The notes beneath the pieces are model-generated. The model was not told the DNA's origin. It saw nothing but the letters and a program-made list of their open reading frames with translations, and did not search any database. From the IMG/VR virus record IMGVR_UViG_3300036865_000084: a stretch of 64,000 nucleotides of DNA; one strand, written 5' to 3'. Each line of letters starts with the position of its first letter. Positions within the stretch are counted from its first letter, which is position 1. Shown in pieces: positions 2,438-61,015 of this stretch. Made by a program: the position numbers and the translations under genes. This DNA is from an uncultured virus (IMG/VR IMGVR_UViG_3300036865_000084) (lineage: Duplodnaviria; Heunggongvirae; Uroviricota; Caudoviricetes).

Positions 2438-3133
2438 ATGTCTAGGGGATATATCTCGAAAAAACGCAGGTTTGCGATCCTGTCGCGGTGGGATCATCGC
2501 TGCGCCTACTGCGGGCGAGGTAGCCCTGAGGTGGCACTGAAGATCGACCACATCATCCCAGTGGCGCAGGGCGGTTCCGATGACGACGGAAATCTCGCCC
2601 CGGCATGCGACGACTGCAACTTTGGCAAGCGCGACCGTGTGTACTCGCACCTTGTGCAACGAGTGGATGTCAGTGTGCGAGAGAATGCGCGCAGGCGTCG
2701 AGTCGAGTTTCTGCCATGGCTTCGCCGACAGCGAGGCCGCAACGACATCGTCGGCGACTTCGCAGACGACGAGGAGAAATGGCCGCTCGTGGAACCGTAC
2801 TCGTTTCCGGATCTCTCCAAGCAGCTCCGCAACAAGCACGCGAGCAGAGAGGCCCGTAACGCTGCCTGGCACGCGTGGCGCGAGTTTCAGCGCAACGGAA
2901 AACCTACGCGCGCGGTAGCGAAGATGCAGGCCGAGTTTCGCGCTGCGCTCGAGAGAGCGATGCAGCCCGGGAGCGGGACCAACTTCTACACGAAGCAGGG
3001 CATCTACAGCGAGGACACGCTCATAACGTACGAGGACAAGTCGAAGCGACGTCTGGACGACAAGAAGAGAGCCGCGAAGACGAAGAAGAAAGTCACAAAG
3101 AAACGAGTGAAGCGATCTCCTCGCACCACCTAG
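2438..3133 (+). CDS. HNH endonuclease with YozE/SAM-like domain
   Basis: CAYCG...IDHIIPVAQGG...NLAPACDDCNFGK, followed by FLPWLRRQRGRNDIVGDFADD. Confidence 0.8.
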   Translation: MSRGYISKKRRFAILSRWDHRCAYCGRGSPEVALKIDHIIPVAQGGSDDDGNLAPACDDCNFGKRDRVYSHLVQRVDVSVRENARRRRVEFLPWLRRQRGRNDIVGDFADDEEKWPLVEPYSFPDLSKQLRNKHASREARNAAWHAWREFQRNGKPTRAVAKMQAEFRAALERAMQPGSGTNFYTKQGIYSEDTLITYEDKSKRRLDDKKRAAKTKKKVTKKRVKRSPRTT

Positions 3134-28800: not shown

Positions 28801-31185
28801 CCGCTTCTTTTGATCCTCGGTGCGGCTGTCGGGGTCGGAGCGCTCATCGCGTTGACGAGCAAGCCCACGCAAGCCGCGCAGTCTCCGAAGCAGCAAGGCG
28901 GTCCCGCGCTGCCGCCGAACCTTCCGCCGCCGCCCGGAGAGTCCTATGCAGGCTGATATCTACGTCTTCTACAGCGGCCAGTACGTCTACCTGGGAAGAT
29001 TCCCCGTCGCGCAGGTCGGCGCGATCATCGGCGCCATCGGCACCGCCGGGAGTCTCCTTCCGCCGTGGGTGCCGCCGGGCAGCTACATGCTCGTGAGGCC
29101 GGCGTGAACCGGCTCGTTTGGGTTGGCGGTCTAGGCGCCGCCGCGATCCTCGCGGCCGTCGCCGCCCTATCGATGGCGAAGCCTGCGGCCGCCGCGACTC
29201 CGCCGCCCAACGCGACGACGCTCGTCCAGGGGCACCGCTACAAGATCACGTTTCCGACCCCCGCGACGACCGCGCCGAGCGTCGCCGAGGTGCAAGCGGT
29301 CTACGACAAGATCGTGCCCGGCATGATCCACATCGTCGACGTCGGCTTCGTCAAGCCCGGCACCGGCTACACCACCTTCGACTGGAAGGGCGCGACGATG
29401 CCGGTCCTGCAAGCGTTCGACAAGATCGAGCCGGGGTCTACGATCGTCGACCTGGGAGCGTCGCCATGAAGGCATCGACCGAGAGACTGCTATGGATCGG
29501 AGGGCTCGGCGCGCTCGTCGTGGGCGGCCTTGCCGCGGTGGCGTTCTCGGGCAAGTCGACGCCGCAAGGTGGCGGCCAGGGGGGCGTGAATCCGTTCCCG
29601 CCGTTTCCGTTCCCTCCCGGACCCCTCCCCGGCGGTCAGGGCGGCGGCGGCGTCCACGCGTGCGACAACAACTTCGTCGCGTCGATCGACGGCCCCTACG
29701 TCGCGGTCGTGTGCCTCGGCGGAGAGCTCACGCTTCGGGCGTCTCTTCTCTGGGTCATGACGACGGCGCCCGACCCGGGCGTCTTGCGCGTCGAGTCGCA
29801 TCCCGCGTCGGGCTACTTCCTCCGCGCGGTCGGCCGAGGCAAGACGACGATCGTGCTCGCCAACGAGCGTGACGCGGTCGCGCGAAGCTACGAGGTGATC
29901 GTCCCGTGAAGACCGATCGCCTCCTCTGGATCGGCGGCTTGGGAGCGCTCGTGGTAGGCGGGATCGCCGCCATCGCGCTCTCGGGCAAATCGTCCGGTCA
30001 GGCGCCGCTCGAGCCGAGAAAGAGACCTCTCCCTATTCCGCAGGGTCCGCCGCCTCCGCCCGTCGACATCAACAGCGTCAGCGGCACGAGCATCAACCTT
30101 GTCGTCGGGCAGCATCTCCTTACGGCGGTCAAGATCCCGGGCATCACCGTGAGCGACAATTCGAACCCGAATGTGCTCTCGAAGATCGCCGACAACGACT
30201 ACGTCGCCCAAACGCCTGGGACGAGCACGCTCACGTTCTCGAGCGCCTTCGGAGAGAAGTTTCCGTACGCGATCACGGTGAAGTGATGTCGGCGAAGACC
30301 GACAAGGCGCAGTCTGATCCGTGGAGCGTTCTCTACGACGACATCGCGAGCTTCACGAGCGGTAACGTTCCGTCGCGTGAAGACGTAGAGGCCACCGTCG
30401 TCGCTGTTGCGGTGCTCGCTGAGGCGGCTCCCGCCGTTGTTGCGGCTCTCATTCTCGTCATCGCGCTGATCGACGCGTACGCATGGCTCGCGAGCAAGCT
30501 TGGTGCAGAAGATTACTGCCAGCACCCACCGATCGACACGAACGACGTTCGATGGCTCCACTTCGGCGACGATTCGGCCGTGTCGTGGCCCGAGGGCACC
30601 ATCTCTTCGGGCCCGTGGAGTAACTTCAAGCCAGGAAGCTTCGAGGCGTGGGCCTTTCCTGTGCTCGCGCTCAATTGGGAGTATCGACTCAACTGTCGCG
30701 CGTTCATCGACTACCGAGAGCTTCTCTCGCGACTCGTCGACGCGTGGAACAAGACCCATCTCGTTCGCGGCGACGAGGCGGCTGTAAACACGGCCGTCTA
30801 TCAGCTTCCGGTAGTCCAGGCGCCGGGCGGTCCGCCCGTCATCTACCGGGCGCAGTGGCCGATGACCGTGAAGATCGTGAGCGGCGCTCCCCCCTCGCTG
30901 CCGCCGTGGCAGCACGTCTCTGGCACGTTTGGCGACTTTACGTTCATCTCGACCGATGACCATACTATCGTCGTGAACCGAGGACCCGCTTCTCCGCATC
31001 TGCACCTTCCACCCGGACCTCTTCAGGGCGCGTCCACCGGCACCAAGGTCGCCGCCGGAGCTGCGGCAGTGGGCGGCGCCGCCGTTGTGGGCACGCTCGT
31101 CTACGCGTGGGCGACCGGGAAGACGATCGACGCGGTGCTGTCGCGTTTCTGGGGGGCGGTCAAGCGTGCCGCGCACGCCAAATGA
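25825..31185 (+). other. Cluster of about 14 small genes, mostly single-TM Pro-rich membrane proteins (25825-26265, 26262-26429, 26426-26887, 26887-27138, 27189-27539, 27536-27787, 27789-28232, 28237-28599, 28606-28956, 28946-29107, 29104-29469, 29466-29909, 29906-30286, 30286-31185)
   Basis: Shared R-L-x-W-x-x-G-L-[GV] anchor in several, followed by poly-Pro linkers; tight translational coupling. Confidence 0.7.
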
Positions 31186-32618
31186 GTGACTTCGCGCCCG
31201 GTGTCGCCGCCGCCCAAGCTGCGGGCGTGAAGGTCTCGCAGGCGCCCTATCCGACGGGCCCCGAAGGCGCTCGCGTGAGCCTCGAAACGATCGCGAAACG
31301 TATCCGCGAGGGACAGAGCGATCCACGCATCGTGGAGCTCGCCGGCAAGATCCTCATCGAGGCAGGCTTCAACGGCCGCGGGATGGGCGCTGGCTCCAAC
31401 AGCGAGCGCGTTGGCGCGCTGCTCGGCTGGGTGCGTGGGTGGCTTCTCTACGTGCCCGACGCGCCAGGCACCGAACGGATCGCGTCGGCCGCGGCGCTCG
31501 CGTGCGTCTCGAAGGATCTCTGCATCCGCATCGGCGACTGCGACGATCAGCTCGTGCTTCTCGGATCTCTTGTCGGCGCGATCGGGATTCACGTACGCAT
31601 CGTCAAGCAGAACTTCGGCCCTGATGTGCAAGAGCACGTACTACTCGAAGCCTCGGACGAGAGCGGAGCGTGGTTCTACGCCGACCCGTCGACGAATCAG
31701 CCCATCGGCGGCGCCCCTCGAGCCCTCTCCGAGGTTAGAGTAGATCCCATGGACCCGAACGTTAGCGACGTCGGCGCAGGCGCCGTGATCGTCACGATGG
31801 GAAGGCCCCACGGCGGCGGTTTTCACAGCCGCCCGCTCCGCCATCACTTCCACGAAGGCCGGTGGTGGGCGCACTGGCCGGAGCACGGCTGGCTCGTCGT
31901 CGAAGGCGAGACGTGCGGCAAGTGGAGTGACCCGATCGCCGCCAGCGCCGACGTCTACGCCGAAGGGTTGCGGCAGCTCCAGGCGTCGAACGGCACGCCC
32001 GTCAGCGAGGAGTACGGCGGGCGGCTGTATCTTTTCACCGTCGAGAACGACCACGTCGCCGTCAGGACGTGCGTCAGCGCCGTCGGGGTTGGCGCGCCCG
32101 TCAGCGTCGGCGTCGGCTTCTGCGACTACGACCTGATCAAGTCGGTGCGCGCGCGTCTTGTTGCGCCTTGGTACGCGCTCAACGGCGACGTCGACGCGTG
32201 CAAGGCGTTCCCGATCGATCAAAAGTACGCGTTCAAGGGTGACTTCGAGAGCTTCAAGAACTGGTACTCGGGCGCCTTGCCGGACGACTGGTTCTGCTCG
32301 AACGCCGAGCGCGACGAGATCGAGCAGGGTCGCGACTTCGAGGCGCGCCTCAACAACTGGCGACGCATCCTCGCGGCGACCAACTGCGCTTTGAGCGCGC
32401 CCGATCTGCCGCCGCTCACGCAAGATGATCCCCGAAGCCGCGACTACAAGCCGCCGGAGGGAAACAACACGCTCGATCAGGTGAAGTCGCTCCTCATTAC
32501 GGTCGGCATCGTTGGCGGTGTGGCGGCTGGCGTCTACCTGGCCTTCCCGGTTCTACGCGCGGGCGCCGAGGCGGGAGCGGCGGCGCTCAAGGGGCGCAGA
32601 CGCTCGAAAGTGAAGTAG
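31182..32618 (+). CDS. Transglutaminase-like (Cys-His-Asp) protein with C-terminal TM; putative virion protease
   Basis: GDCDD...EHV...WFYADPS catalytic-triad pattern. Confidence 0.75.
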   Translation: MSDFAPGVAAAQAAGVKVSQAPYPTGPEGARVSLETIAKRIREGQSDPRIVELAGKILIEAGFNGRGMGAGSNSERVGALLGWVRGWLLYVPDAPGTERIASAAALACVSKDLCIRIGDCDDQLVLLGSLVGAIGIHVRIVKQNFGPDVQEHVLLEASDESGAWFYADPSTNQPIGGAPRALSEVRVDPMDPNVSDVGAGAVIVTMGRPHGGGFHSRPLRHHFHEGRWWAHWPEHGWLVVEGETCGKWSDPIAASADVYAEGLRQLQASNGTPVSEEYGGRLYLFTVENDHVAVRTCVSAVGVGAPVSVGVGFCDYDLIKSVRARLVAPWYALNGDVDACKAFPIDQKYAFKGDFESFKNWYSGALPDDWFCSNAERDEIEQGRDFEARLNNWRRILAATNCALSAPDLPPLTQDDPRSRDYKPPEGNNTLDQVKSLLITVGIVGGVAAGVYLAFPVLRAGAEAGAAALKGRRRSKVK

Positions 32619-32630
32619 AAGAAAAGATCA

Positions 32631-32745
32631 TTGCGTTGATATGCGTTACCGCGCGACACGGCGCTGTGCTTAGCTCTGCGACACGTTGCTGGGCGACGCG
32701 TCGCCTTACGTCTCGTGGCATTGCTGAACTACGCACGACTACGCG
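32631..32745 (-). ncRNA. 5-nt-periodic NGY-NN array 2 (23 units); candidate gapped guide RNA
   Basis: Plus strand reads tt-gcg tt-gat at-gcg tt-acc gc-gcg ac-acg gc-gct gt-gct ta-gct ct-gcg ...; 21 of 23 units fit NN-RC-N. Confidence 0.75.
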
Positions 32746-33389
32746 GCGTTGTGAATCTTGCTTCGACCGTCTCTGACGTCCCAGCCGACGACGTCGAACA
32801 CGCCGAAGACGCCGAACTTCTCCGGACGCCAGCTCCCCACGCCGATCTGTTGACCGCCCTCGGTGAAGAGCTGCCGAACGACGCTCTCGGCCATCAAGTC
32901 GGTGTTGATGCGGACGAGCAGCCGGAAGCTCCACTCGTCGAGTCGCGGGCGGTGGCTCATCACGCGACCCTTCGTGAACGGGTTCACCGCCGAGCAAGAG
33001 TGAACCTCAAACGTTGTCAGGCGCGTCTTCCGATCCTTCGCGAAGAGCGGCACGGGTCCGGCCTTCTCGTCGCCGCCGAGCACGAGTACCGCCGCCGGCA
33101 CGCGGTACTTGAGGGTCTTGCGGGTGCCGCGCTCCTTGTGGTTTGAGCCCGCGTTGACGAGCATCCGTTGGAACATCTCGCGCGGCAGGACGAGTGGTGA
33201 TCCCGGGCCGCTCTCGCGGTACGCGAAGTCTTCCGCGATCTCGCGAGGGAGCGGCTTCTCCCCAGCTGTCGTCGTGGCTCGCGTGCCCTTGCCGCTGCCG
33301 CCTGGTAGGTTTGCTTCGGCCTTCTCGGTGAACCTGTGCATGAGGAGCGGCATCACGCCGGCCCCCCAGACTTCGACGTACGAGTACAT
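32739..33389 (-). CDS. Stand-alone RAMP/Cas7-like protein (Vipr-like candidate)
   Basis: N-terminal strand VEVWG..VMPLLMH; LVLPREMFQRMLVNAG; RPRLDEWSF; Gly-rich loop IGVGSWRPEKFGVFGVFDV. GAGGTG RBS precedes the ATG at 33389. Confidence 0.7.
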   Translation of the reverse strand: MYSYVEVWGAGVMPLLMHRFTEKAEANLPGGSGKGTRATTTAGEKPLPREIAEDFAYRESGPGSPLVLPREMFQRMLVNAGSNHKERGTRKTLKYRVPAAVLVLGGDEKAGPVPLFAKDRKTRLTTFEVHSCSAVNPFTKGRVMSHRPRLDEWSFRLLVRINTDLMAESVVRQLFTEGGQQIGVGSWRPEKFGVFGVFDVVGWDVRDGRSKIHNAA

Positions 33390-33408
33390 GACGTCACCTC
33401 TTGGATAG

Positions 33409-33503
33409 AGACGTTGCTTTGCTAGGCGCTGCCGCGCCATACGGTACGTGGCTACGCTGCGCTAAGCAGTGCATCGCGCAGCATGGCGATGCACAGCCAC
33501 GCT
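33409..33503 (-). ncRNA. 5-nt-periodic NGY-NN array 1 (19 units); candidate gapped guide RNA
   Basis: Plus strand reads ag-acg tt-gct tt-gct ag-gcg ct-gcc gc-gcc at-acg gt-acg tg-gct ...; 19 of 19 units fit NN-RC-N. Confidence 0.8.
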
Positions 33504-33652
33504 TACTTCGTTTCTTCTCGCTTGATCAGCATCCGCAGCACACTCGCCACCGTGAGCCCGTAATGATCGGCGACGCGCTTGAACAAGCGGTGCTCCTCTT
33601 CACTGAGCCTGAGGGTAACGACCACGCTGCGAGCTTTCTTTTTCGCAGCCAT
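33503..33652 (-). CDS. Small ribbon-helix-helix regulator (49 aa, absent from ORF track)
   Basis: MAAKKKARSVVVTLRLSEEEHRLFKRVADHYGLTVASVLRMLIKREETK. Confidence 0.7.
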   Translation of the reverse strand: MAAKKKARSVVVTLRLSEEEHRLFKRVADHYGLTVASVLRMLIKREETK

Positions 33653-33732
33653 GGTTGATGTATAGCCGTTTCAAGCGACTAGTCAAGAGAAGCGCAATTG
33701 ATTTTGGCTCCGCGTTGTCGCACCATAAAGGC

Positions 33733-34185
33733 ATGATCATCGCGAAGGGATACGCCGTCTCGTTCGAGATGAAGGACGGCAGCGACGTCGACGCGCCTCG
33801 TTCCGCGGCGATGCTTCACGACGAGAAGGGCAAGCACTGGCCGAAGTGCTCGATGCTCATCATGCCGTTCCGTAAGGGCGGCGCCGCTGTCGAGATGACC
33901 GGCGATGAAGCCGACTACTTCGGCGGCGACTACGACGCGCGCCAGGGCAGCGTGACGCTTCCGCCGAAGCCTCTCTCTGAGTGGACGTGCCTCGGCGAGG
34001 TGCACAAGATCTTCTACGAGCGGCCGGGCAAGCACCGCGGCCTCTTCAAGCACGAGTTCGGGAAGCGGCGGCTCGTCGGTCTCTTCAAGACGGGCAAGGC
34101 GACGCTCTACAAGCGCGGCAGCGCGCTGCGCCTCGAGCTCGGAAAGAGCTGCATCGCCGACGCGCGCGGAATCGTCAGGCCGTAG
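33733..34185 (+). CDS. Hypothetical protein
   Basis: Clean ORF with typical codon use. Confidence 0.6.
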   Translation: MIIAKGYAVSFEMKDGSDVDAPRSAAMLHDEKGKHWPKCSMLIMPFRKGGAAVEMTGDEADYFGGDYDARQGSVTLPPKPLSEWTCLGEVHKIFYERPGKHRGLFKHEFGKRRLVGLFKTGKATLYKRGSALRLELGKSCIADARGIVRP

Positions 34186-34408
34186 CTGTCTCCGACGGCG
34201 GCCGCCCGCGCCTTCGCACGCCGACGACTCCGAGTTCGCGAATGAGCCGTTGAAGATGCGTGCGCCTTGCGCCCGCGAGACGCGCGGCTTCGGTGAGATT
34301 GCCGCGCGTCTTCTTGAGGAGCGCCTTCAGGTACTCGCGAGTCCACTCGTCGCGCGCCTTGCGGCGGCCTTGCGTCAACTTCGTCTCGAGGAGTTCTTCG
34401 TCGCGCAT
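34175..34408 (-). CDS. Stand-alone Fis/NtrC-type HTH protein
   Basis: REYLKALLKKTRGNLTEAARLAGARRTHLQRLIRELG. Confidence 0.75.
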   Translation of the reverse strand: MRDEELLETKLTQGRRKARDEWTREYLKALLKKTRGNLTEAARLAGARRTHLQRLIRELGVVGVRRRGRPPSETATA

Positions 34409-34650
34409 CCTAGGGATGCCTCAATTCTGGTTCGAGTGCCGCCGAAACGCTAGATGCGTAAAACGCCAGAAAATAAAGGCGCTGACGCGATCACAAATCG
34501 CGCGGTACCGTTTGAAGCGCGGTGCTCGACTACCTCGACTTGCTCGCCAAGAACAGAGAGTCCGCACCAGAGCATGCGGCGGTGCCGGTGCTCTATGCGA
34601 AAACGAAGAAGAAGTCGAAGTCGAAACCGACTCGCACAACGGAGAAGAAG

Positions 34651-35826
34651 ATGGCCCGAAAGCGCAAGAAGGCGTCGCGCCCCCGTCGTCGTGATGGCAA
34701 GTTCGCCAAGGTGCGCCGCAAGCGCAAGTCGCGAGCCGGTGAAGAGGCTCCGCGCCGCCGTCGGCGTCGTCGGGCGCGTCGGGCGGCGGCTGTGACTCCG
34801 CGTCGGCGCCGTCGGCGTCGGGCGCGTCGCGCAGCGGTTGCTCCGCGGCGTCGGCGCCGCCGTCGGGCGCGCAGGGCGGCCGCGGCAGCGCCGCGTCGTC
34901 GACGTCGTCGTCGGAGCCGCGCGCGTGAGGTGCCGCATCAGGTGCGGCGCAATCGGCGCGGCCGCTTCTCGAAGAGCGCGCGTGCGCGCCGGGTCGGCAC
35001 GATCAGCCACGAGGCCCCGCGCCGTCGCGGCCGAAGCCGTCGCCGCCGGAGCCGCGAGCGCTACGCGATGGAGAACCCGCTCAGAGGGATGGAGCTCTTC
35101 ATCGGCGGCGTGACGATGCTGACGGGGGCCGGCGTCGCCGATCTCCTCGATCGGTTCCTCGCTACGCACCCGCTTCAGGTGAAGGACGCGGCAAACAACC
35201 TCTACGCCGATCAGCCGCCGACCGACGGCAACTACAAGGGCATGTTCAACGGTGCCGCGGTCGACGCGCCGATGGACATGAAGCGCTGGCTCGCGGGCGG
35301 CGCGGTCGTGCTCGTGCCGTTCGCGGCGTCGGGCTTCGTCAAGTCGGGCGCCGGCCGAAGCGCGCTCCAGCTCTTCGCCTTCGGCGCGCTCGTGCGCGTC
35401 GCCGGCAAGGCTGCGCGGGACGGCATCGCCGCCCTCCTCAAGAAGAACGCCACGGGCCAGCGGCTCTACATCGACGAGATGAGGGCGGCGGCCCTGAAGA
35501 AGGGCGACGGCAGCGAGGCCAACCTCGTCGCCGCCGGCCTCGGCGCTCCGTACCGTCAGCTCCCCGCGGGCGTCGGCGGGTGCGGCTGCGCCAACTGCCG
35601 GACCGGACAGGGCGCGTGCTGCGGCAAGATGCAGCCGGCGCCGGCTCCGGCCCCCGCCCCGGCTCCGCAACCGCCGCCGGCCCCGACGGGCCCCATCGGC
35701 ATCTCGCCGCCGCAGTTCGTTCCGGGCGGCGGTCACCCGCTGCCGTCTCCGAACCCGGGCGTCAGCGGAGCTCCGCTCCGTCAGCGCCCCCCGATGATGG
35801 GCGGGTTCACTCACCCCGACGACTGA
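34651..35826 (+). CDS. Arg-rich protamine-like protein with TM segments and Cys/Pro-rich tail
   Basis: GGAG RBS; about 135-aa Arg-rich N-terminus, hydrophobic helices, CGCANC..CC. Confidence 0.75.
   Translation: MARKRKKASRPRRRDGKFAKVRRKRKSRAGEEAPRRRRRRRARRAAAVTPRRRRRRRARRAAVAPRRRRRRRARRAAAAAPRRRRRRRSRAREVPHQVRRNRRGRFSKSARARRVGTISHEAPRRRGRSRRRRSRERYAMENPLRGMELFIGGVTMLTGAGVADLLDRFLATHPLQVKDAANNLYADQPPTDGNYKGMFNGAAVDAPMDMKRWLAGGAVVLVPFAASGFVKSGAGRSALQLFAFGALVRVAGKAARDGIAALLKKNATGQRLYIDEMRAAALKKGDGSEANLVAAGLGAPYRQLPAGVGGCGCANCRTGQGACCGKMQPAPAPAPAPAPQPPPAPTGPIGISPPQFVPGGGHPLPSPNPGVSGAPLRQRPPMMGGFTHPDD
34750..34926 (+). repeat. Four 45-48 bp coding repeats (PRRRRRRRARRAA-like)
   Basis: Units start at 34750, 34798, 34843 and 34891, with synonymous codon variation. 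Confidence 0.85.
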
Positions 35827-44498: not shown

Positions 44499-45008
44499 CT
44501 AGCATCCGCAAGGATCGACATCGATTGCCGGCCACGCGCGACGGCTCCACCCCGCTTTTCGTCGTTCGAAATCCTTGCAGCCGCCGCACTGCCAGTGCGC
44601 AGGCGTCTGGAGCAGTAAGCGTTCGTCGTAAGTCCGAGACGCCGGCGGAGTATCCCAGCCCGCGCGGTAGAGGGACGCCCAGGATTCGCGGCCAGGCACC
44701 ACGATCCGCGCGCCGCACGCGCAATCGAACTCGAGTTGCGCCGGACGCTCCCAGTACCTCTTCGGCTCTTTCGGCATCGTGTAGATCTCGCCGTAGAAGC
44801 CTCTCTTGACGCTGCGGCTGCAATTCATCGCCAGTTGCGCGCGCCACTCTTCGATCGTCATGCTGCCCTTCACCAAGTTGCAGCTCGGGCAAGCTGGGAC
44901 GAGATTGCGCCCTTCACCGCCTCCGCGTTGCTTGGGAATCTTGTGCTCGCGGTAGCGAGGGCCCGGAACGACGCTCCCGCAGTACCAGCACGGCATCACC
45001 TTGGTCAT
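44499..45008 (-). CDS. HNH endonuclease
   Basis: CWYCG...EHKIPKQRGG...NLVPACPSCNLVKG. Confidence 0.8.
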   Translation of the reverse strand: MTKVMPCWYCGSVVPGPRYREHKIPKQRGGGEGRNLVPACPSCNLVKGSMTIEEWRAQLAMNCSRSVKRGFYGEIYTMPKEPKRYWERPAQLEFDCACGARIVVPGRESWASLYRAGWDTPPASRTYDERLLLQTPAHWQCGGCKDFERRKAGWSRRAWPAIDVDPCGC

Positions 45009-46045
45009 TGCTCTCTCTTCTTGCCGAACAGTCCGCGCGTCGCCCCCGCATCGAACGGAGACTCGAGCCGGCGATATTTGTCGAACTGAAAGTGGCTCCG
45101 GTGCCCCGTCTGACCCATCGCCGACGCGCGATCGATGCCGGCTAGATGCGCGGAGGTCACGTAGCCGGCGCGTAGAGAGTGACCGGCGAAATCGCCCGGA
45201 ATGTTTCCCGCCTTGGCGGCGCGCTGCACGATTTCGGCGACGATGCGCGGATCAAGCCTCCGATCGATCACAACGCCGTTCTCGATGGGGCGATAGATCA
45301 ACCCCCGGGTGATGCCGGCGGCGCGCAGCCATCGCGAGAGAGCGCGAACGGCGCATAGTTCGGGGTAGTCGCGGTTGCGCTCGAACGTCTTCACCGTGGG
45401 CTTGTCGCCGGTCTGGCTTGTCTTTGAGCGCCGGACAGTGATCGCAAACTCGCCGCGCGCCTTGTCGGTTGCGATGTCGGCTGTGACGACAGCCACCAGC
45501 TCGGAGCGGCGAAAGCCGCCGTACAAGCCGGTGAGAAACATCGAGAGGTCTCTGAGCGCCTCGAGCTCGGTAACGCCGTCGCCGATGTGCTCGACAAACT
45601 GCCACACCAGGTTCGGCGTGATGGCCGTGACGCGCCGTTCGAACAGCCCAAGCTCGGCGCAACGGACCGCGGCGCCCTCTAGAGCGTCATCGATCGCCGC
45701 CGGGCGCCCCTTCTCTGGCCATCCGCGCGCCCCGTTACCGCGAAGTTTGTCCGCGATGCCCGCGTACGCGCGGCGGATCGTGGAGATCTTGCGGTAGTTA
45801 TCTGCGAGCCATGTGAGGTGCGTCGCTACGGCGCGCGGGGTCGCAGCCTCCGCGTTGATGCCTCGCTCACGACACCATCGCTCGAACGCGGCCCAATCGG
45901 CCGCGTACGCGTCGTACGTGGCTTCGGAGCGCCGCTTGCGTACGATCTCGGCCGATCGTCGTACGTCCTCGGCTAGCTGTATAGATAGCGCGTAACTATC
46001 GGGAATTACTACGATTTTCGCGTTTTTAGCCTCGTCGTCCGGCAT
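45005..46045 (-). CDS. Tyrosine recombinase (Cre-like)
   Basis: SAM-like N-domain; RD...GGFRRSEL, RSKT, GHSLRAG, TGHRS...KY. Confidence 0.9.
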   Translation of the reverse strand: MPDDEAKNAKIVVIPDSYALSIQLAEDVRRSAEIVRKRRSEATYDAYAADWAAFERWCRERGINAEAATPRAVATHLTWLADNYRKISTIRRAYAGIADKLRGNGARGWPEKGRPAAIDDALEGAAVRCAELGLFERRVTAITPNLVWQFVEHIGDGVTELEALRDLSMFLTGLYGGFRRSELVAVVTADIATDKARGEFAITVRRSKTSQTGDKPTVKTFERNRDYPELCAVRALSRWLRAAGITRGLIYRPIENGVVIDRRLDPRIVAEIVQRAAKAGNIPGDFAGHSLRAGYVTSAHLAGIDRASAMGQTGHRSHFQFDKYRRLESPFDAGATRGLFGKKREQ

Positions 46046-50366: not shown

Positions 50367-53300
50367 ATGAAGAAGCTGGTAGAGCTGAACGCAGGCAACG
50401 CAAAGCGCGTGCTGTCAATGCTCGTCGCGCTCGCGAAAGAGCACGGCGAGGCGCGTGTCCGCTGCGTGGAAGGATCGCACGACTCGATCTGTGTCGAGGT
50501 CTACACGCGCCCGACCGACTTCTCGCACGGCAACCTCGTCGACTCCGCGAGCGTGTGGATCGCTGGCCCGTACGCCGACGAAGGCGCGTGCTTTGCGAGC
50601 GGGCCGGCGATTCGCGGGGTCGTGGGGCGGTACTACCCGGAGCATCGCGAGGAGAAGGGGCGATGAAAACCGGCGTCCGCCACCTGCTCGACCGCGCCAT
50701 CGCCGACGGCATCGAACCGAAGCGACGTCGCCGCCCCTGCGGCGGCACGTTCCGCAACGGTCCGAGCAAGAAGTTCGCGCGCTGCGACCGCTGCGGCGTC
50801 GTCGATTACGAGAAGTACGAAGGAGACCGCCATGGATCCTGACGCAAACCTCGCGCGCCAGCTGGAGCTCGCGCAGGAGATTATCGACAAGATCGACGAC
50901 GGCGACGAGAGTGCGGTCGATAAGGCCTGCGCGCTCGCCGAGCTCGTCCTCGCCCTCAACGAATGGCTCGCGCGGGGCGGGTTCAAGCCGAAGGCGTGGG
51001 AGGTGAAGCCGAACGTCGAAGGCCATTCTGAACGGTGCAGTCGCGCGAACGGAAGGGGGTGCACAAGCGACTGCCCGAACTACGATCCGAAGTTCGACGA
51101 CAACGTTTAGGCGGCTCGATTCGCGTCTCGCCGCCCGCCGTCTCTCGGAATGGTCCGAGGGGCGGCGCCTGCGGGGCGCGAGTCGCGAAGGAAGCGCACG
51201 AGGCGAGGGTGCCCCTCGTAGTCGCGAGACGTCTCGTGCGCTTCCTTCGCGGCAACGAACGCGAGCAAACGAGGAGACGCGAACATGAACAAGTCGAAGA
51301 ATTGGAAGGACGAGCCGTACCTCGACAACTACCCGCCGCTCAAAGAGTGGCTCCGCAAGATCAAGGCGAATTGCGTTCGTCAGGAGCGCTTCGGTCCGGA
51401 CATGATCGAAACGTGGATGGCGAACGGACGCGGGTTCGTGCTCGTCATCCGTGCGCGGGGTCACGGGTGGAACATCTACACCGACTGCGACGACAACGGC
51501 ATCGAGGCGACGCTCCGCGACGCCGAGAAGCGGCTCGGCATCGAGGGCTCGTCGTCGTGAAGCTCGCCGACATCAAGCCCGGCCGCTGGTACGCGACCCG
51601 TGTCGGGATGGGCGAGTGCCTTAGACACTTCGACGGCGCGGTCTTCTTCAAGATCGACGGGCGCGAGCGCATCGTCCATCCGCGCGACGTCTACGGCGAG
51701 ACGAAGAAGCCGGAGGGTGCGCCGTGAGGATCACCATGGGCGCATGGGCGCTGCTCGGCGATCTGCGCGACGCTGCCGAGGAGTTCCGCAGCGAGCGTCT
51801 TGCCGTACCGACTCGATACGCTGCGGCGAAAAAGAAACTCGACGCCGCACGCGAAGCTTTGGAGCAAAACCTAATCGACCACCCTGAGTGGTTTGGAGTG
51901 TCGTCATGAAAATCGTCGTCGACGGCGTGGAGCACGAGGTGCCGCGGCTCACGCCCGCGCAGAGACTTGCGATGGTGTGTTGGTTCGACGGAACCGGCGC
52001 GTTGCTCAACATCGAGAAGAGCGCTACGCCGGTCTGGCGCGAGCTACTTTCTCTCGGGCTCGTTGTAGAGGGCGATCGGTCCAAGCACATTGCACCGTGC
52101 TTTCTGAATGGTTTGACCCCTCTCGGATGCGCGGTCGCCGCCGCCCTCGCTTCGCGGGTGCCGTCGTGACGAAGCTCGTCATCGGTCGCGGCATGAAGCA
52201 GCGGCTCACCAAGGCAGGCCTTCGCGCTGAGGAGCACTTCAAGAAACTCGCGGACGCGTACCTAGCCACCGTCGGGACGAAGCCGGGCCGCCTCGGCTAC
52301 GAATGGAACGTCGAGACGCGCGCTGGCACGCTCTCACTCACCGCGTACGGGCATTCGATTGCCGGCCGATTCGGGGACGTCGAGCGCGCGAAGGCGCTCG
52401 GTCTCGGCTACCTCAACCCGTACAGCGGCAAGTGGAACCACCACTACGAGATCGGGGCCGCGGAGGCGGAACTCGAGGACTTCAAGCGGCAGCTCGGGCG
52501 CGTGCTGCCGAAACCGGAAGGTGCTCCGTGAAGACGTGCTTGCATGGCTACTACGTGTGTCCCGAAGGCTGCTCGGCACTCGACTTCGCGAAGGCAGAAG
52601 CGAAAACTCTCGCCGCAGAGTATTCGCGCGACGTCCGAGCGCGACGCGCCGCGGGTGATGCGCGTCCCGAGTACCACGCGCAGCGTCCCAAGGTGAGGGC
52701 CTACGCCATCCTGATGCGTCGCGGGATGACCCCGCGCGAGGCTGTCGATTACTTCCGCTCCGTCTCGGAGGAACAATGATCCGAACCATCACCCCCACCG
52801 GCCAATTCTTCCTCTTCCCGCCCGACGTCCACGCCAAGCGCCTCGGCTTCGCGTTCGAGGTCATCGCGCTGACGACCCGCGCAAGGAAGTGGATCAAGAA
52901 GCGCGTCGCCCGAGGCGTCTCGTGGCCTCTCGTCGAGCCGCGCTACTTCCACGACATGGCGGAAGGGATGCAGCGGGACGGCCTGTTCTTGGTGGTGTCA
53001 TGACGCCCGCGGACACGCGCAAGCTCGAGTCTCTGCACCGACAGCTCGCCACCGCTCAGCGCAAAGCTCAGAAGTGGAAGCGCGCAGAGGCGACAACGAG
53101 CCTGGCGCTTGCGCGCGCGGAGCGCGCCCACGAACGTGCGCGGATCGCCCGCGCGGGCTGGCAAAGCCGCGTCAACAACATCAACGACATGATCGTCATC
53201 ATCCTCTTGGAGGAGGCTAATCATGGCTGACATCGTCATCAAGTTGCCGGACACGTCCGCGATGCGCGAGGTGCTCGCGTACTTTATCGGGGTCGCGAGG

Positions 53301-59789: not shown

Positions 59790-60734
59790 TCAGCCTCCGC
59801 CGGCCGGCTCGCTGAAGCCCGGAGCGCTCGCCTCGATGTAGACCGCGAGGCCCTCTGCGTCGCCGGCGAAGCGCTGAAGATCGACGTGTGTCGCGATGCC
59901 GGGGCACGTGCCCGTGTCGCTGTACTGGTGGAAGTCGTAGCTCGGCGTCGCCGGCAGGCGCACGCCGTAGTGCGCGATCGAGAGGTCGGCGGCAACGCCG
60001 TAGAGGTTCATGCTCTTCAAGAGCGTGTCGCCGATGTAGAGGACGGGCTGCCGCATCGACAGAATCGTCAGCGCGTCGATGCACACAAGCACCTCGTCGC
60101 GCGTCGGCGTCACATACCGACCGTTCACGAGGTACGGCTCGACGTCGATCATCGGCGGGAGCTCTCCCGGGTCGTCGCCGAGCTGCGCGACGAAGTGCTG
60201 CATTTGAAGCTTCACGTCGACGCCGGTGTAGAGGAAGTGGTAGGCGCCGCGGGGGAGGCACCCCTTCGAGTCGGGCCAATTGTCGACGAACGTCTTGTCG
60301 ACGCCCGAGGCTCCCATCGTCGCGCGGATGTACGCGTAGAGCTTCTGCCGCCAGTAGAGCGGCGGGGCCGAAGCCGCTTTCTTCCAGTCGATGCTCTTCT
60401 GATACTCGCTGACGTCGATGCCTTCGGCGGGCATCGACACGACGTTCGTATCGGTGATGTCGCCGGTGACTTCGTAGATGGTGACGCCGCGGTGGCGGAT
60501 GTGATTCTGGAAGTCGGGCGGATGAACGTTGACCCACGCAAGGAGCGGTACGCCAGACTTCGCGTCGACGGTGAACTCCCCCGTCGTCGATTGGAAGAGA
60601 TCCAAGGGCCCGTGGAGAATATCCACAGCCCACGCGCTGATCGCGGGCGTCACCTCGCTGTCGTGGAGGGGACGGCAGCCGCCCGGGGGCGGAGGGTTCG
60701 GCGGCAGCGGCAACAGCGTCGCAGGTTGCGTCAC
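59790..60734 (-). CDS. GH25 muramidase (endolysin-like) with extra N-domain
   Basis: GIDVSEYQ..IDW, YIRATMG, GAYHF, IDVE, HQYSDTG..PGI. Confidence 0.85.
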   Translation of the reverse strand: MTQPATLLPLPPNPPPPGGCRPLHDSEVTPAISAWAVDILHGPLDLFQSTTGEFTVDAKSGVPLLAWVNVHPPDFQNHIRHRGVTIYEVTGDITDTNVVSMPAEGIDVSEYQKSIDWKKAASAPPLYWRQKLYAYIRATMGASGVDKTFVDNWPDSKGCLPRGAYHFLYTGVDVKLQMQHFVAQLGDDPGELPPMIDVEPYLVNGRYVTPTRDEVLVCIDALTILSMRQPVLYIGDTLLKSMNLYGVAADLSIAHYGVRLPATPSYDFHQYSDTGTCPGIATHVDLQRFAGDAEGLAVYIEASAPGFSEPAGGG

Positions 60735-61015
60735 GTCGTCTGCTTTCGCGCTTGCACCGCGCCCGCGAACCCCGTGACGAGCCATGCCGCGAGGCCGAGC
60801 CCCGCAGTCGCGAGCCCGGCTTCACGCCAGCGAGGGGATAGCGCGGCGGTGACGAGCCCGCCTCCCGCCGCCAGCGCGAGCCCGGCTTGCGGATTCGCGA
60901 CCAAGGCGCCCGCGCCTGCGCCGAGCGCCAACGCGCCGAGGCCGAAGGCGACGTTTCCGATCGAAGTCGTCGGCGGCGACAACGGGTTTTCGCGGCGACG
61001 CTTCGCGAGCTTCAT
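60731..61015 (-). CDS. Small multi-TM membrane protein
   Basis: MKLAKRRRENPL followed by three Gly/Ala-rich helices. Confidence 0.6.
   Translation of the reverse strand: MKLAKRRRENPLSPPTTSIGNVAFGLGALALGAGAGALVANPQAGLALAAGGGLVTAALSPRWREAGLATAGLGLAAWLVTGFAGAVQARKQTT

What the first reader, a model, noticed from the sequence alone, without database searches (positions are those of the whole stretch)
32631..33690. Non-CRISPR RNA-guided system candidate: RHH + NGY-NN array + RAMP/Cas7-like gene + second NGY-NN array
Seen: a compact minus-strand cassette sits antisense inside the virion module. Its order is RHH gene (33652-33503), 19 x 5-nt array, 216-aa gene (33389-32739), 23 x 5-nt array. On the transcribed strand both arrays read NGY-NN: GY is nearly invariant and the dinucleotide varies freely. 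They are not simple tandem repeats and the period is not a multiple of 3. Knowledge: the protein has the RAMP/Cas7 layout (first strand then PLLMH, P-x-x-x-F-x-x-x-L helix, terminal Gly-rich loop GVGSWRP..FG.F). RAMPs oligomerise along RNA with a fixed nucleotide step. From memory and unverified here, this resembles reported viral VIPR systems with GGY/NN guides, but here the first base is relaxed (C/A/G/T-GY). Inference: one protomer binds each NGY and displays NN, so the NN series encodes a gapped DNA target. No nuclease or cas gene is adjacent, which suggests silencing of competing viruses or host genes.
Basis: partly seen in the sequence, partly recalled or inferred. Interest (0 to 1): 0.97.

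Follow-up and report, generated by a model that had tools for sequence, protein, structure and literature searches.

The report
Phage VIPR system, relaxed NGY guides
A phage-like contig from a wetland metagenome carries a VIPR system, a CRISPR-related RNA-guided DNA silencer first described in 2026: one small Cas7-like protein flanked by two guide-RNA tracts written in five-base steps, so it is a further example of a known kind, from a branch that fixes two bases per step instead of three.

Summary
On the minus strand lie a 49-aa RHH gene, 19 five-base units, a 216-aa gene and 23 more units. G-pyrimidine recurs every 5 nt in 19 of 19 and 21 of 23 units. The best of 100 simulated windows reached 13 of 19.

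The protein is a Vipr. Its family profile matches the solved SUSP1 Vipr protein (PDB 36pp, E 2.9e-10, full length). Its model has the Cas7/Csm3 fold (Z 12). 79 of 80 viral relatives carry period-5 arrays beside the gene. So this is a member of the published VIPR family, in the variant already listed there as YNNNG repeats. This scan has found such systems before on other DNA.

Two additions:
- The relaxed first base tracks loss of the G-loop Asp that reads G1 in SUSP1. It is Ser186 here. All 6 proteins with Ser/Ala have G1 at or below 0.31, against 3 of 63 that keep Asp.
- Position 1 is G-depleted and A/C-biased, not free.

The RHH gene is not conserved beside relatives. No natural target was found. 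No RNA data exist.

The parts
33659..33686 (-). Promoter-like site TTGACT, 16 nt, TATACA. It ends 6 nt before the RHH start codon, which implies a leaderless or near-leaderless transcript.
   Evidence: Read directly from the sequence. The consensus scan found no site under its own rule, which needs T at position 6 of the -10 hexamer. This is inference only.
33503..33652 (-). 49-aa ribbon-helix-helix gene (DUF6290/RelB/CopG-like). It is a neighbour of the system and possibly its regulator. It is not a conserved accessory gene.
   Evidence: Pfam gives DUF6290 at E 6.5e-6 (26.7 bits, cut-off 27), plus NikA-like, RHH_7 and RelB below cut-off. NCBIfam gives RelB antitoxin at 2.8e-5, below cut-off. 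No homologue lies beside vipr in 97 loci. One weak homologue was found in the protein collection.
33409..33503 (-). vrRNA array 1: 19 units of N-G-Y-N-N, all 19 with GY. The last variable units read AA, AA, CT.
   Evidence: Its fold energy is not unusual (z -1.57).
33390..33408 (-). 3' flank of array 1. It holds the vipr ribosome-binding site AAGAGGTGA (33402-33394) and a small, non-significant hairpin.
   Evidence: z -0.56.
32739..33389 (-). vipr gene, 216 aa: a Cas7-like RAMP. Equivalents of the SUSP1 RNA-contact residues are H17 = H18, R138 = R147, D177 = S186, W178 = W187 and R179 = R188.
   Evidence: The profile hits PDB 36pp_D 'SUSP1 Vipr protein' at E 2.9e-10, and the single sequence at E 7.5e-4. 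The AlphaFold2 model has pLDDT 82.4. Foldseek's top hits are Csm complexes at E 2.5e-7. VIA-align gives Z 12.1-11.1 to Cmr, Csm3 and type VII Cas7 chains. It also matches phrog_4652 at E 7.3e-12.
32631..32745 (-). vrRNA array 2: 23 units, 21 with GY. It begins in the last two codons and the stop codon of vipr, and ends ...ATCAA CGCAA.
   Evidence: Fold z is -0.82.
32600..32630 (-). T-rich 3' tail of array 2, with CACTTTC at 32612-32606. The CACTTT(T)C motif also follows arrays in the related loci L001 and L002. The tail is antisense to the 3' end of the convergent gene 31107-32618.
   Evidence: array ends of the window, L097, L001 and L002. No terminator-like site was found on the minus strand.

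Best explanation
This is a VIPR (Viral Interference Programmable Repeat) system carried by a phage.

Proposed mechanism:
1. The cassette is transcribed on the minus strand, probably from the promoter-like site in front of the RHH gene.
2. The two intergenic tracts give two guide RNAs (vrRNAs) of about 19 and 23 five-base repeats.
3. One Vipr protomer binds each repeat and the protomers form a helical filament.
4. G2 and Y3 of each repeat are held by the thumb Arg (R147) and by the G-loop Trp and Arg (W187, R188).
5. The two following bases (N4, N5) are presented for pairing with double-stranded DNA whose matching dinucleotides are separated by one skipped base.
6. Binding blocks transcription of the target, most likely a gene of a competing phage, satellite or prophage.

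The difference from the studied SUSP1 system is in the pocket that reads the first guanine. It has lost its G-loop Asp (Ser186 here), so position 1 is no longer G. It is A or C in about 72% of units.

What is shown here: the arrays, the fold, the homology, the array association across relatives, the residue mapping and the covariation.

What is inferred from the published SUSP1 work: transcription, filament formation, the one-base-skip code and silencing.
For: Arrays:
- GY at period 5 in 19 of 19 and 21 of 23 units. Simulations reach at most 13 of 19.
- These are the only such sites in the window.

Protein:
- The profile of 25 homologues matches PDB 36pp_D 'SUSP1 Vipr protein' at E 2.9e-10. 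The match covers profile positions 3-189 of 202 and chain residues 1-187 of 202.
- The window protein alone matches at E 7.5e-4.
- The model (pLDDT 82.4) matches Csm3, Cmr and type VII/IV Cas7 chains: Foldseek E 2.5e-7, VIA-align Z 12.1, 11.9, 11.8 and 11.1.

Family:
- 257 of 311 pattern matches in viral contigs encode relatives, and 80 were kept.
- 79 of those 80 have a period-5 G array of 9 or more units on the gene's strand within 700 nt upstream or 1500 nt downstream.
- The family has 1142 representative clusters at E <= 0.001.

Residues:
- The equivalents of R138, W178 and R179 are kept. The D177 equivalent is Ser.
- 71 distinct Vipr proteins were examined, 69 with arrays.
- All 6 with Ser/Ala at that site have G at position 1 in 0.05-0.31 of units.
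- 60 of the 63 that keep Asp have 0.47-1.0.
- The Ser/Ala cases fall in three separate places of the tree.

Guide content:
- The window and L097 share 79% aa and 73% nt identity in vipr, yet their arrays cannot be aligned. This is as expected for guide content that turns over.
- The NN dinucleotides fit codon positions 1-2 of this phage's genes better than the other registers. The log2 likelihood is -156.6, against -165.3 for the antisense 1-2 register and -173.9 to -195.5 for the rest. This agrees with a wobble-skipping code.

Context:
- The window is phage-like: primase/helicase, Sak4, ParB, integrase, endolysin and HNH genes.
- No CRISPR-like repeats and no cas hits were found.

Published mechanism: bioRxiv 10.64898/2026.04.26.720920 (Results, Methods sections 18 and 20) and 10.64898/2026.04.26.720927 (sections 5 and 6).
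Against: - No natural target was found under the one-base-skip rule, in any of these searches:
  - the window itself;
  - 97 related loci;
  - IMG/VR seeds;
  - five records and 401 genomes.
- There is no evidence of expression. No RNA run holds the locus.
- In SUSP1 a D177A change abolished silencing. A natural Ser at this site therefore means either an adapted pocket, as argued here, or a weakened protein.
- Three Asp-keeping proteins (L026, L044, L056) also have relaxed position 1, so the Asp is not the whole explanation.
- The arrays have 19-23 repeats, longer than the 9-16 reported for SUSP1-type vrRNAs. Processing into shorter RNAs cannot be excluded.
- The codon-composition fit may only reflect that NN is AT-richer than the genome.
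Confidence: 0.9

Rival explanations
1. It is a VIPR system with an altered reading code. With the G1 pocket lost, position 1 is released and pairs with the base that SUSP1 skips. Each repeat would then read three contiguous target bases (N4 N5 N1), with only G-Y flipped out.
For: - Position 1 varies among all four bases.
- The Asp that sequesters G1 in SUSP1 is Ser here.
- The discovery paper lists YNNNG repeats without giving their targeting rule in the text I read.
Against: - Position 1 is not free. It is A/C in 29 of 40 units, and G in only 5 of 40 against 34% background.
- The same bias holds in the sister loci L001 (42 of 57) and L002 (40 of 55). Other lineages fix it as A (L090, 20 of 23) or T (L044, 12 of 15). 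This looks like a protein pocket with changed preference, not a coding position.
- If position 1 read the wobble base of GC-rich genes (GC3 0.73-0.95 in this window), it should be G/C-rich. It is 33% A.
- No target was found to test the code directly.
Confidence: 0.06
2. It is a decaying or inactive VIPR remnant. The protein has lost a residue essential in SUSP1 (D177), and the arrays are relics.
For: D177A abolished silencing in SUSP1. No target and no RNA evidence were found.
Against: - The arrays are near perfect: 19 of 19 and 21 of 23.
- The ORF is intact, and 17 columns are invariant across 25 homologues, including the thumb Arg and the G-loop.
- The Ser/Ala state is shared by a well-supported clade (100/99) whose members all keep long arrays.
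- Codon position 3 has diverged far more than positions 1 and 2 between the window and L097 (identity 0.51 against 0.83 and 0.85). This is the mark of purifying selection.
Confidence: 0.03
3. The RHH gene and the 216-aa gene form a toxin-antitoxin or other two-gene regulatory module, and the pentamer tracts are incidental regulatory leaders.
For: The RHH protein resembles RelB/DUF6290 antitoxin-type proteins, below the curated cut-offs. It sits directly upstream on the same strand.
Against: - The 216-aa protein is a Vipr/Cas7 homologue, not a known toxin.
- Relatives lack the RHH gene but keep the arrays.
- The arrays are far beyond chance.
Confidence: 0.01

Closest known systems
Type II VIPR of Escherichia phage SUSP1 (Vipr, PDB 36pp; vap1; four vrRNAs). 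bioRxiv 10.64898/2026.04.26.720920 and 10.64898/2026.04.26.720927
   Same: - A small single-RRM RAMP protein that is homologous over its full length (profile E 2.9e-10).
- Conserved equivalents of R138, W178, R179 and H17.
- Guide tracts of five-base repeats on both sides of the gene, on its strand.
- Phage-borne, with no nuclease gene beside it.
- No self-target, as the paper reports for its own systems.
   Different: - The relationship is remote. The single sequence matches only at E 7.5e-4, over the C-terminal third.
- The repeat is N-G-Y-N-N, not G-G-Y-N-N, and the D177 equivalent is Ser.
- There are 19-23 repeats per tract, against 9-16.
- No pseudoknot-type tail was recognised.
- The neighbouring small gene is an RHH protein. 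It is not a homologue of any gene beside the relatives, and the words 'RHH' and 'ribbon' do not occur in the discovery paper's main text.
VIPR systems with alternative repeats (NNNGG, YNNNG, NNNNG), listed in the Methods of 10.64898/2026.04.26.720920
   Same: Written in that paper's register, the window's units are Y-N-N-N-G. This is one of the listed alternatives.
   Different: The text I could read gives no locus, type, residue basis or targeting rule for this class. The supplementary figures and data (fig. I therefore cannot say which of the seven types this is, or whether this clade is among the 667 systems.
Cas7 backbone subunits of class 1 CRISPR effectors (Csm3, Cmr4, type VII and type IV Cas7)
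   Same: The fold is the same (VIA-align Z 12.1-10, 135-170 residues aligned; Foldseek E 2.5e-7). So is the presumed mode of action: one protomer per fixed step of guide RNA.
   Different: - Sequence identity is 7-14%.
- There is no CRISPR array in the window.
- No other cas gene appears among the 80 ORFs scanned.
- The step is 5 nt, not 6.
- The guide is written inside the repeat itself.
RelB/ParD/CopG-type RHH proteins (Pfam DUF6290)
   Same: The 49-aa protein has the N-terminal strand and two helices that these profiles match.
   Different: All matches are below the curated cut-offs. There is no toxin partner, and no conserved link to vipr.

Membership tests
VIPR system | Vipr protein with RAMP architecture (RRM core, glycine-rich loop, thumb) | tested here: met
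   - The model has pLDDT 82.4.
- VIA-align gives Z 12.1 (rmsd 3.7, 161 aligned) to a Cmr chain, and 11.8 to Csm3.
- Foldseek gives E 2.5e-7.
- The G-loop GVGSWRP..FG.F aligns with the SUSP1 G-loop.
VIPR system | Sequence homology to an experimentally characterised Vipr | tested here: met
   The profile against PDB 36pp_D 'SUSP1 Vipr protein' gives E 2.9e-10 over nearly the full length. The single sequence gives E 7.5e-4.
VIPR system | Tandem five-base repeats (GGY/NN or a related consensus, at least four units) flanking vipr on its strand | tested here: met
   There are 19 and 23 units of N-G-Y-N-N. This is the variant the paper lists as YNNNG. 79 of 80 viral relatives have flanking arrays.
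VIPR system | Protein contacts to G2 and Y3 (SUSP1 R138, W178, R179) and to G1 (H17, D177) | tested here: inconclusive
   R147, W187, R188 and H18 are conserved. The D177 equivalent is S186. The change goes with loss of G at position 1 in 6 of 6 Ser/Ala proteins. This is a variant state rather than a failure. Binding itself was not tested.
VIPR system | Minimal non-CRISPR locus in a virus or provirus | tested here: met
   The window has phage-type genes, including an integrase and an endolysin. No CRISPR-like direct repeats were found. No cas family appeared among 80 ORFs.
VIPR system | Accessory gene (vap) conserved beside vipr | tested here: inconclusive
   An RHH gene lies directly upstream. 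It has no homologue in 97 related loci, and one weak homologue elsewhere. The closest relative, L097, has no RHH gene upstream. The paper says loci 'typically' hold a vap.
VIPR system | vrRNAs expressed and bound by Vipr | not testable with these tools
   No RNA run holds the locus. This needs small-RNA sequencing and pull-down.
VIPR system | DNA targets that match the NN series with one skipped base | tested here: inconclusive
   No match above shuffled or other-skip controls was found in the window, the held loci, IMG/VR seed scans, or 5 records plus 401 genomes. The searches were seed-limited, and the host is unknown.
VIPR system | Conserved 3' tail after the repeat tract | tested here: inconclusive
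   Arrays of the window clade end in ..GCAA-type units. Array 2 shares a CACTTT(T)C motif with the tails of L001 and L002. There is no significant fold and no Rfam match.
Class 1 CRISPR-Cas effector | CRISPR repeat-spacer array and further cas genes (Cas5, Cas6, large subunit) | tested here: not met
   No repeat-spacer array was found in 64 kb. No cas family was found among 80 ORFs, and Pfam found none in 14 neighbours.
Type II toxin-antitoxin pair (RelB-type) | RHH antitoxin above the family cut-off, with an adjacent toxin gene | tested here: not met
   RelB models score below cut-off (24.3 bits against 50; 16.4 against 22.4). The downstream gene is a Vipr homologue.

The most novel reading that the evidence does not exclude
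In this clade the first repeat position has left the Asp/His pocket that locks G1 in SUSP1. It is either re-specified (A/C-preferring) or free to pair with the base that SUSP1 skips. If it pairs, the code becomes contiguous triplets (three read, two flipped) instead of two read and one skipped. That would be a second natural VIPR code, with higher information per protomer. The natural Asp-to-Ser/Ala switch would be the handle for converting one code into the other.
Probability: 0.08. Interest if true: 0.6.

Novelty: new member of a known kind. Interest (0 to 1): 0.3.

Why it matters
VIPR systems were described only in 2026. The studied examples are from Escherichia and Pseudomonas phages with strict GGY/NN guides. 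This locus is a clean, compact example from a high-GC environmental phage: two tracts, one protein, about 1.1 kb. It belongs to the less described branch that fixes only G-Y.

The useful result is a residue-level rationale for that branch. Every protein in my sample that has lost the G-loop Asp has lost G at position 1, in three separate lineages. Position 1 then shows its own lineage-specific bias. That gives a direct mutational test of how the repeat code is read, and a natural starting point for asking whether variant VIPRs use the same one-base-skip rule.

It does not open a new kind of system.

Tried and rejected
Target searches under the published one-base-skip rule:
- Window against its own two guides. 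The best skip-1 scores were 22 of 38 and 27 of 46. Shuffled guides averaged 21.6 and 25.4, with maxima of 25 and 30.
- 22 guides from 8 relaxed-repeat sources against the window and 97 loci. Skip-1 top scores of 10-14 were no better than the skip-0, skip-2 and reversed-order controls at 10-15.
- IMG/VR exact seeds. Two 9-unit seeds of array 1 gave 0 hits. Three 8-unit seeds gave 22, 32 and 4 loci. None extends: totals were 20-28 of 46, 22-27 of 46 and 18-23 of 38.
- One hit (L112) matches 21 of 22 bases over 11 A-rich units of array 2 and then stops. I read it as chance.
- A 16-unit pattern of array 1 with up to 3 mismatches gave 0 of 5 records and 0 of 401 genomes of the phylum of one MAG that carries a relative. 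That phylum was a guess, because the host is unknown.

Host and relatives:
- No whole genome is held for the window.
- Isolated phages: no tblastn match to Vipr.
- An AAA-ATPase gene matches Mycobacterium phages at 44%, among many other hosts. This is not used as host evidence.
- The window has no tRNA gene.
- Genome contigs gave only 42-46% relatives, in MAGs.
- The metagenome scan gave one close relative, L097.

Expression:
- No RNA holder is listed. Two DNA runs from wetland metagenomes hold the locus, and one is probably the source.
- Laying their contigs showed no variants.

Structure and RNA families:
- No Rfam match at E <= 1 in 32300-33900.
- The arrays and tails fold no better than shuffles (z -1.57, -0.82, -0.63, -0.56).

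Other checks:
- Self-association of Vipr (two copies): the complex job returned 'no answer' (score 0.00, mark 0.42). This is not evidence either way.
- Operator search upstream of RHH found only 6-nt palindromes.
- Vipr has no Pfam or NCBIfam family.
- Earlier notes of this scan hold nothing for this genome.
- Type assignment among the seven published VIPR types is not possible. The defining tree and data are in closed supplements.
Full report
**What is there**

The window is 66% G+C. On its minus strand between 33690 and 32600 lie, in order:
- A promoter-like TTGACT, 16 nt, TATACA (33686-33659). I read it by eye. The consensus scan did not list it.
- A 49-aa ORF (33652-33503).
- A tract of 19 five-base units (33503-33409) that begins on the last base of that ORF's stop codon.
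- A ribosome-binding site.
- A 216-aa ORF (33389-32739).
- A second tract of 23 units (32745-32631) that begins in the last codons of the ORF.
- A T-rich stretch that runs into the 3' end of a convergent plus-strand gene (31107-32618).

Each unit reads N-G-Y-N-N. G-pyrimidine is present in 19 of 19 and 21 of 23 units.

**Is it more than chance?**

GY has a background frequency of 0.18. In 12-unit sliding windows, only these two places in the 64 kb reach 10 of 12 on the minus strand. In 100 first-order Markov simulations, the best 19-unit score averaged 11.4 and never passed 13. The observed score is 19. Tandem Repeats Finder does not see the tracts, because only two of five positions are fixed.

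**The protein**

- Pfam and NCBIfam give nothing. PHROGs gives an unnamed family, phrog_4652.
- The word-indexed protein search found 31 relatives, none named. The exhaustive search found 1142 representative clusters at E <= 0.001.
- A profile of 25 relatives matches one solved chain, PDB 36pp_D 'SUSP1 Vipr protein'. The match has E 2.9e-10 and covers almost the whole length of both. The window protein alone matches it at E 7.5e-4.
- The AlphaFold2 model (pLDDT 82.4, pTM 0.77) finds Csm complex chains first in Foldseek (E 2.5e-7; 98 matches at E <= 0.001).
- In the all-against-representatives search it finds Cmr, Csm3, type VII and type IV Cas7 chains at Z 12.1 to 10.

So the protein is a Cas7-like RAMP and a homologue of Vipr.

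**What is known**

One literature search found three 2026 preprints.
- I read the abstract, the whole Results, two Methods sections and searched passages of 10.64898/2026.04.26.720920.
- I read the abstract, two Results sections and searched passages of 10.64898/2026.04.26.720927.
- I read only the abstract and outline of 10.64898/2026.10.15.759431.

They describe VIPR systems as follows:
- A phage-borne Vipr protein polymerises on a vrRNA made of GGY/NN repeats, one protomer per repeat.
- The protein hides GGY and presents NN.
- NN pairs with double-stranded DNA in which every third base is skipped.
- Binding represses transcription of competing phages and satellites.

The Methods list alternative repeats NNNGG, YNNNG and NNNNG. 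The window's units, written in that register, are YNNNG. The finding is therefore a member of a published family, in a published variant class. Earlier notes of this scan record several such loci on other DNA.

**Relatives**

- 257 of 311 pattern matches in viral contigs encode relatives, and the best 80 were kept.
- 79 of those 80 have a period-5 G array of at least 9 units on the gene's strand, within 700 nt upstream or 1500 nt downstream. L067 misses by that rule, but has 15 GY units by the rule.
- Representative prokaryote genomes hold only 42-46% relatives, in MAGs.
- The metagenome scan gave one close relative, L097, at 79%.
- Isolated phages gave none.

**Why the first base is relaxed**

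In SUSP1, G1 is read by H17 and the G-loop D177. G2 is read by R138 and W178, and Y3 by R179 and neighbours. D177A abolishes silencing. A second solved Vipr has the same set: H17, D175, R136, Y176 and R177.

By the HMMER alignment and a MAFFT alignment of the relatives, the window protein keeps H18, R147, W187 and R188. It has S186 in place of the Asp.

I translated the Vipr gene of every held locus. That gave 96 full-length proteins, 71 distinct, of which 69 have 10 or more GY units. I then measured how often G precedes GY.
- All 6 proteins with Ser or Ala at the Asp site have G at 0.05-0.31. They are the window, L097, L001, L002, L021 and L090.
- Of the 63 that keep Asp, 60 have 0.47-1.0.
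- The three exceptions are L026 (0.07), L044 (0.07) and L056 (0.10). L056 has Gln in place of the His.
- Ten proteins with Asn for the His range from 0.47 to 1.0.

On a maximum-likelihood tree, the low-G1 state needs six changes, at least four of them forced by well-supported branches. The Ser/Ala proteins sit in three places. The window, L097, L001 and L002 form one clade (100/99). L021 and L090 stand apart. L090 is on a long branch, so its place is unsure.

This is correlation among related sequences, not proof. It does give a simple structural reason for the variant. The searched passages of the structure paper do not mention it: the terms 'YNNNG', 'other VIPR' and 'types' have no occurrences. 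The supplements are closed.

**Position 1 is not free**

- Among the window's 40 GY units it is A 13, C 16, T 6, G 5. That is A/C 29 of 40 (p 0.006), and G 12% against 34% background.
- L001 (42 of 57 A/C) and L002 (40 of 55) agree.
- L090 is almost always A (20 of 23) and L044 mostly T (12 of 15).

I read this as a pocket with changed preference rather than a third coding base. This argues against a three-base code but does not exclude it.

**Guide content**

- The window and L097 share 79% aa and 73% nt identity in vipr. Codon position 3 is at 0.51, against 0.83 and 0.85 for positions 1 and 2.
- Their arrays cannot be put in register. The best NN identity is 0.5 and 0.62, taken as the best of many registers.
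- The NN dinucleotides resemble codon positions 1-2 of the window's 59 longer genes more than any other register. The log2 likelihood is -156.6, against -165.3 for the antisense 1-2 register and -173.9 to -195.5 for the rest.
- This fits wobble-skipping targets in coding DNA. It may also only reflect AT-richer NN.
- Arrays of the clade end in ..GCAA-type units. Array 2 shares CACTTT(T)C with the tails in L001 and L002.
- No significant fold or Rfam family was found.

**The RHH gene**

It matches DUF6290, RelB and CopG-type profiles just below their cut-offs. It has no homologue in any of the 97 loci, and one weak homologue among 5.8 billion proteins. L097, L001 and L002 have other genes or none upstream.

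It may regulate the cassette's promoter, or be a locus-specific DNA-binding accessory. I put that at about even odds. Membership in the system is not shown.

**Context**

The window is phage-like:
- primase/helicase
- helicase
- exonuclease
- Sak4
- ParB
- thymidylate-synthase-like
- integrase (45005-46045)
- endolysin (59790-60785)
- several HNH genes

It comes from a 75-kb contig of a wetland metagenome. The genes on either side of the cassette have no family, so 'virion module' stays unverified. The cassette is the only minus-strand block between plus-strand genes, like an inserted moron. No CRISPR-like repeats occur in the window.

**Targets and expression**

No target and no expression data were found. 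Details are under Tried and rejected. The host is unknown.

**Verdict**

The system is VIPR, which is already published, so this is a new member of a known kind.
- Confidence that it is a functional VIPR working by the published mechanism is about 0.9 for membership. It is lower for the exact code.
- Interest is 0.3. This rests on the clean example, the Asp-to-Ser/Ala link and the open question of the code in this branch.

Noticed in passing
window 34522-35826 (+), repeats at 34748-34888: A 434-aa ORF holds three tandem 45-48-nt repeats that encode runs of PRRRRRRRARRAA. This is an extremely arginine-rich segment in a protein with no family match. It may be a DNA-binding or internal virion protein.
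   Followed up: partly
window 34175-34408 (-): A 77-aa ORF with a Fis-type HTH_8 match just below cut-off (E 2.8e-4). It lies on the same strand as the VIPR cassette, but is separated from it by the plus-strand gene 33655-34185.
   Followed up: no
window 33650-33690: The RHH start codon lies 6 nt after a -10-like hexamer. The divergent plus-strand ORF (33655-34185) starts 3 nt from the RHH start. The arrangement is back-to-back, with a probably leaderless RHH transcript.
   Followed up: no
L090 (Acidobacteriota MAG), L044 and L056 (viral contigs): Other Vipr relatives have arrays with position 1 fixed differently: A-G-Y in 20 of 23 units (L090) and T-G-Y in 12 of 15 (L044). L044 and L026 keep both G1-contact residues yet lack G1, which is unexplained.
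   Followed up: partly
L016 and L052 (viral contigs): Some GGY-type relatives carry very long guide regions downstream of vipr, with about 378 and 357 period-5 units counted.
   Followed up: no
L001 and L002, downstream arrays: The tails of the downstream vrRNAs (ACCAAAGGAC..) resemble the ribosome-binding region in front of vipr in the same loci. The repeat-plus-tail units may have arisen by duplication of the upstream tract.
   Followed up: no
L112 (viral contig, 58 kb): Eleven consecutive units of array 2 match 21 of 22 bases under the one-skip rule, and the match then stops. The stretch is A-rich and this is probably chance.
   Followed up: partly
window 2438-3133, 44499-45008, 50832-51110: Three separate HNH endonuclease genes lie in one phage contig.
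   Followed up: no
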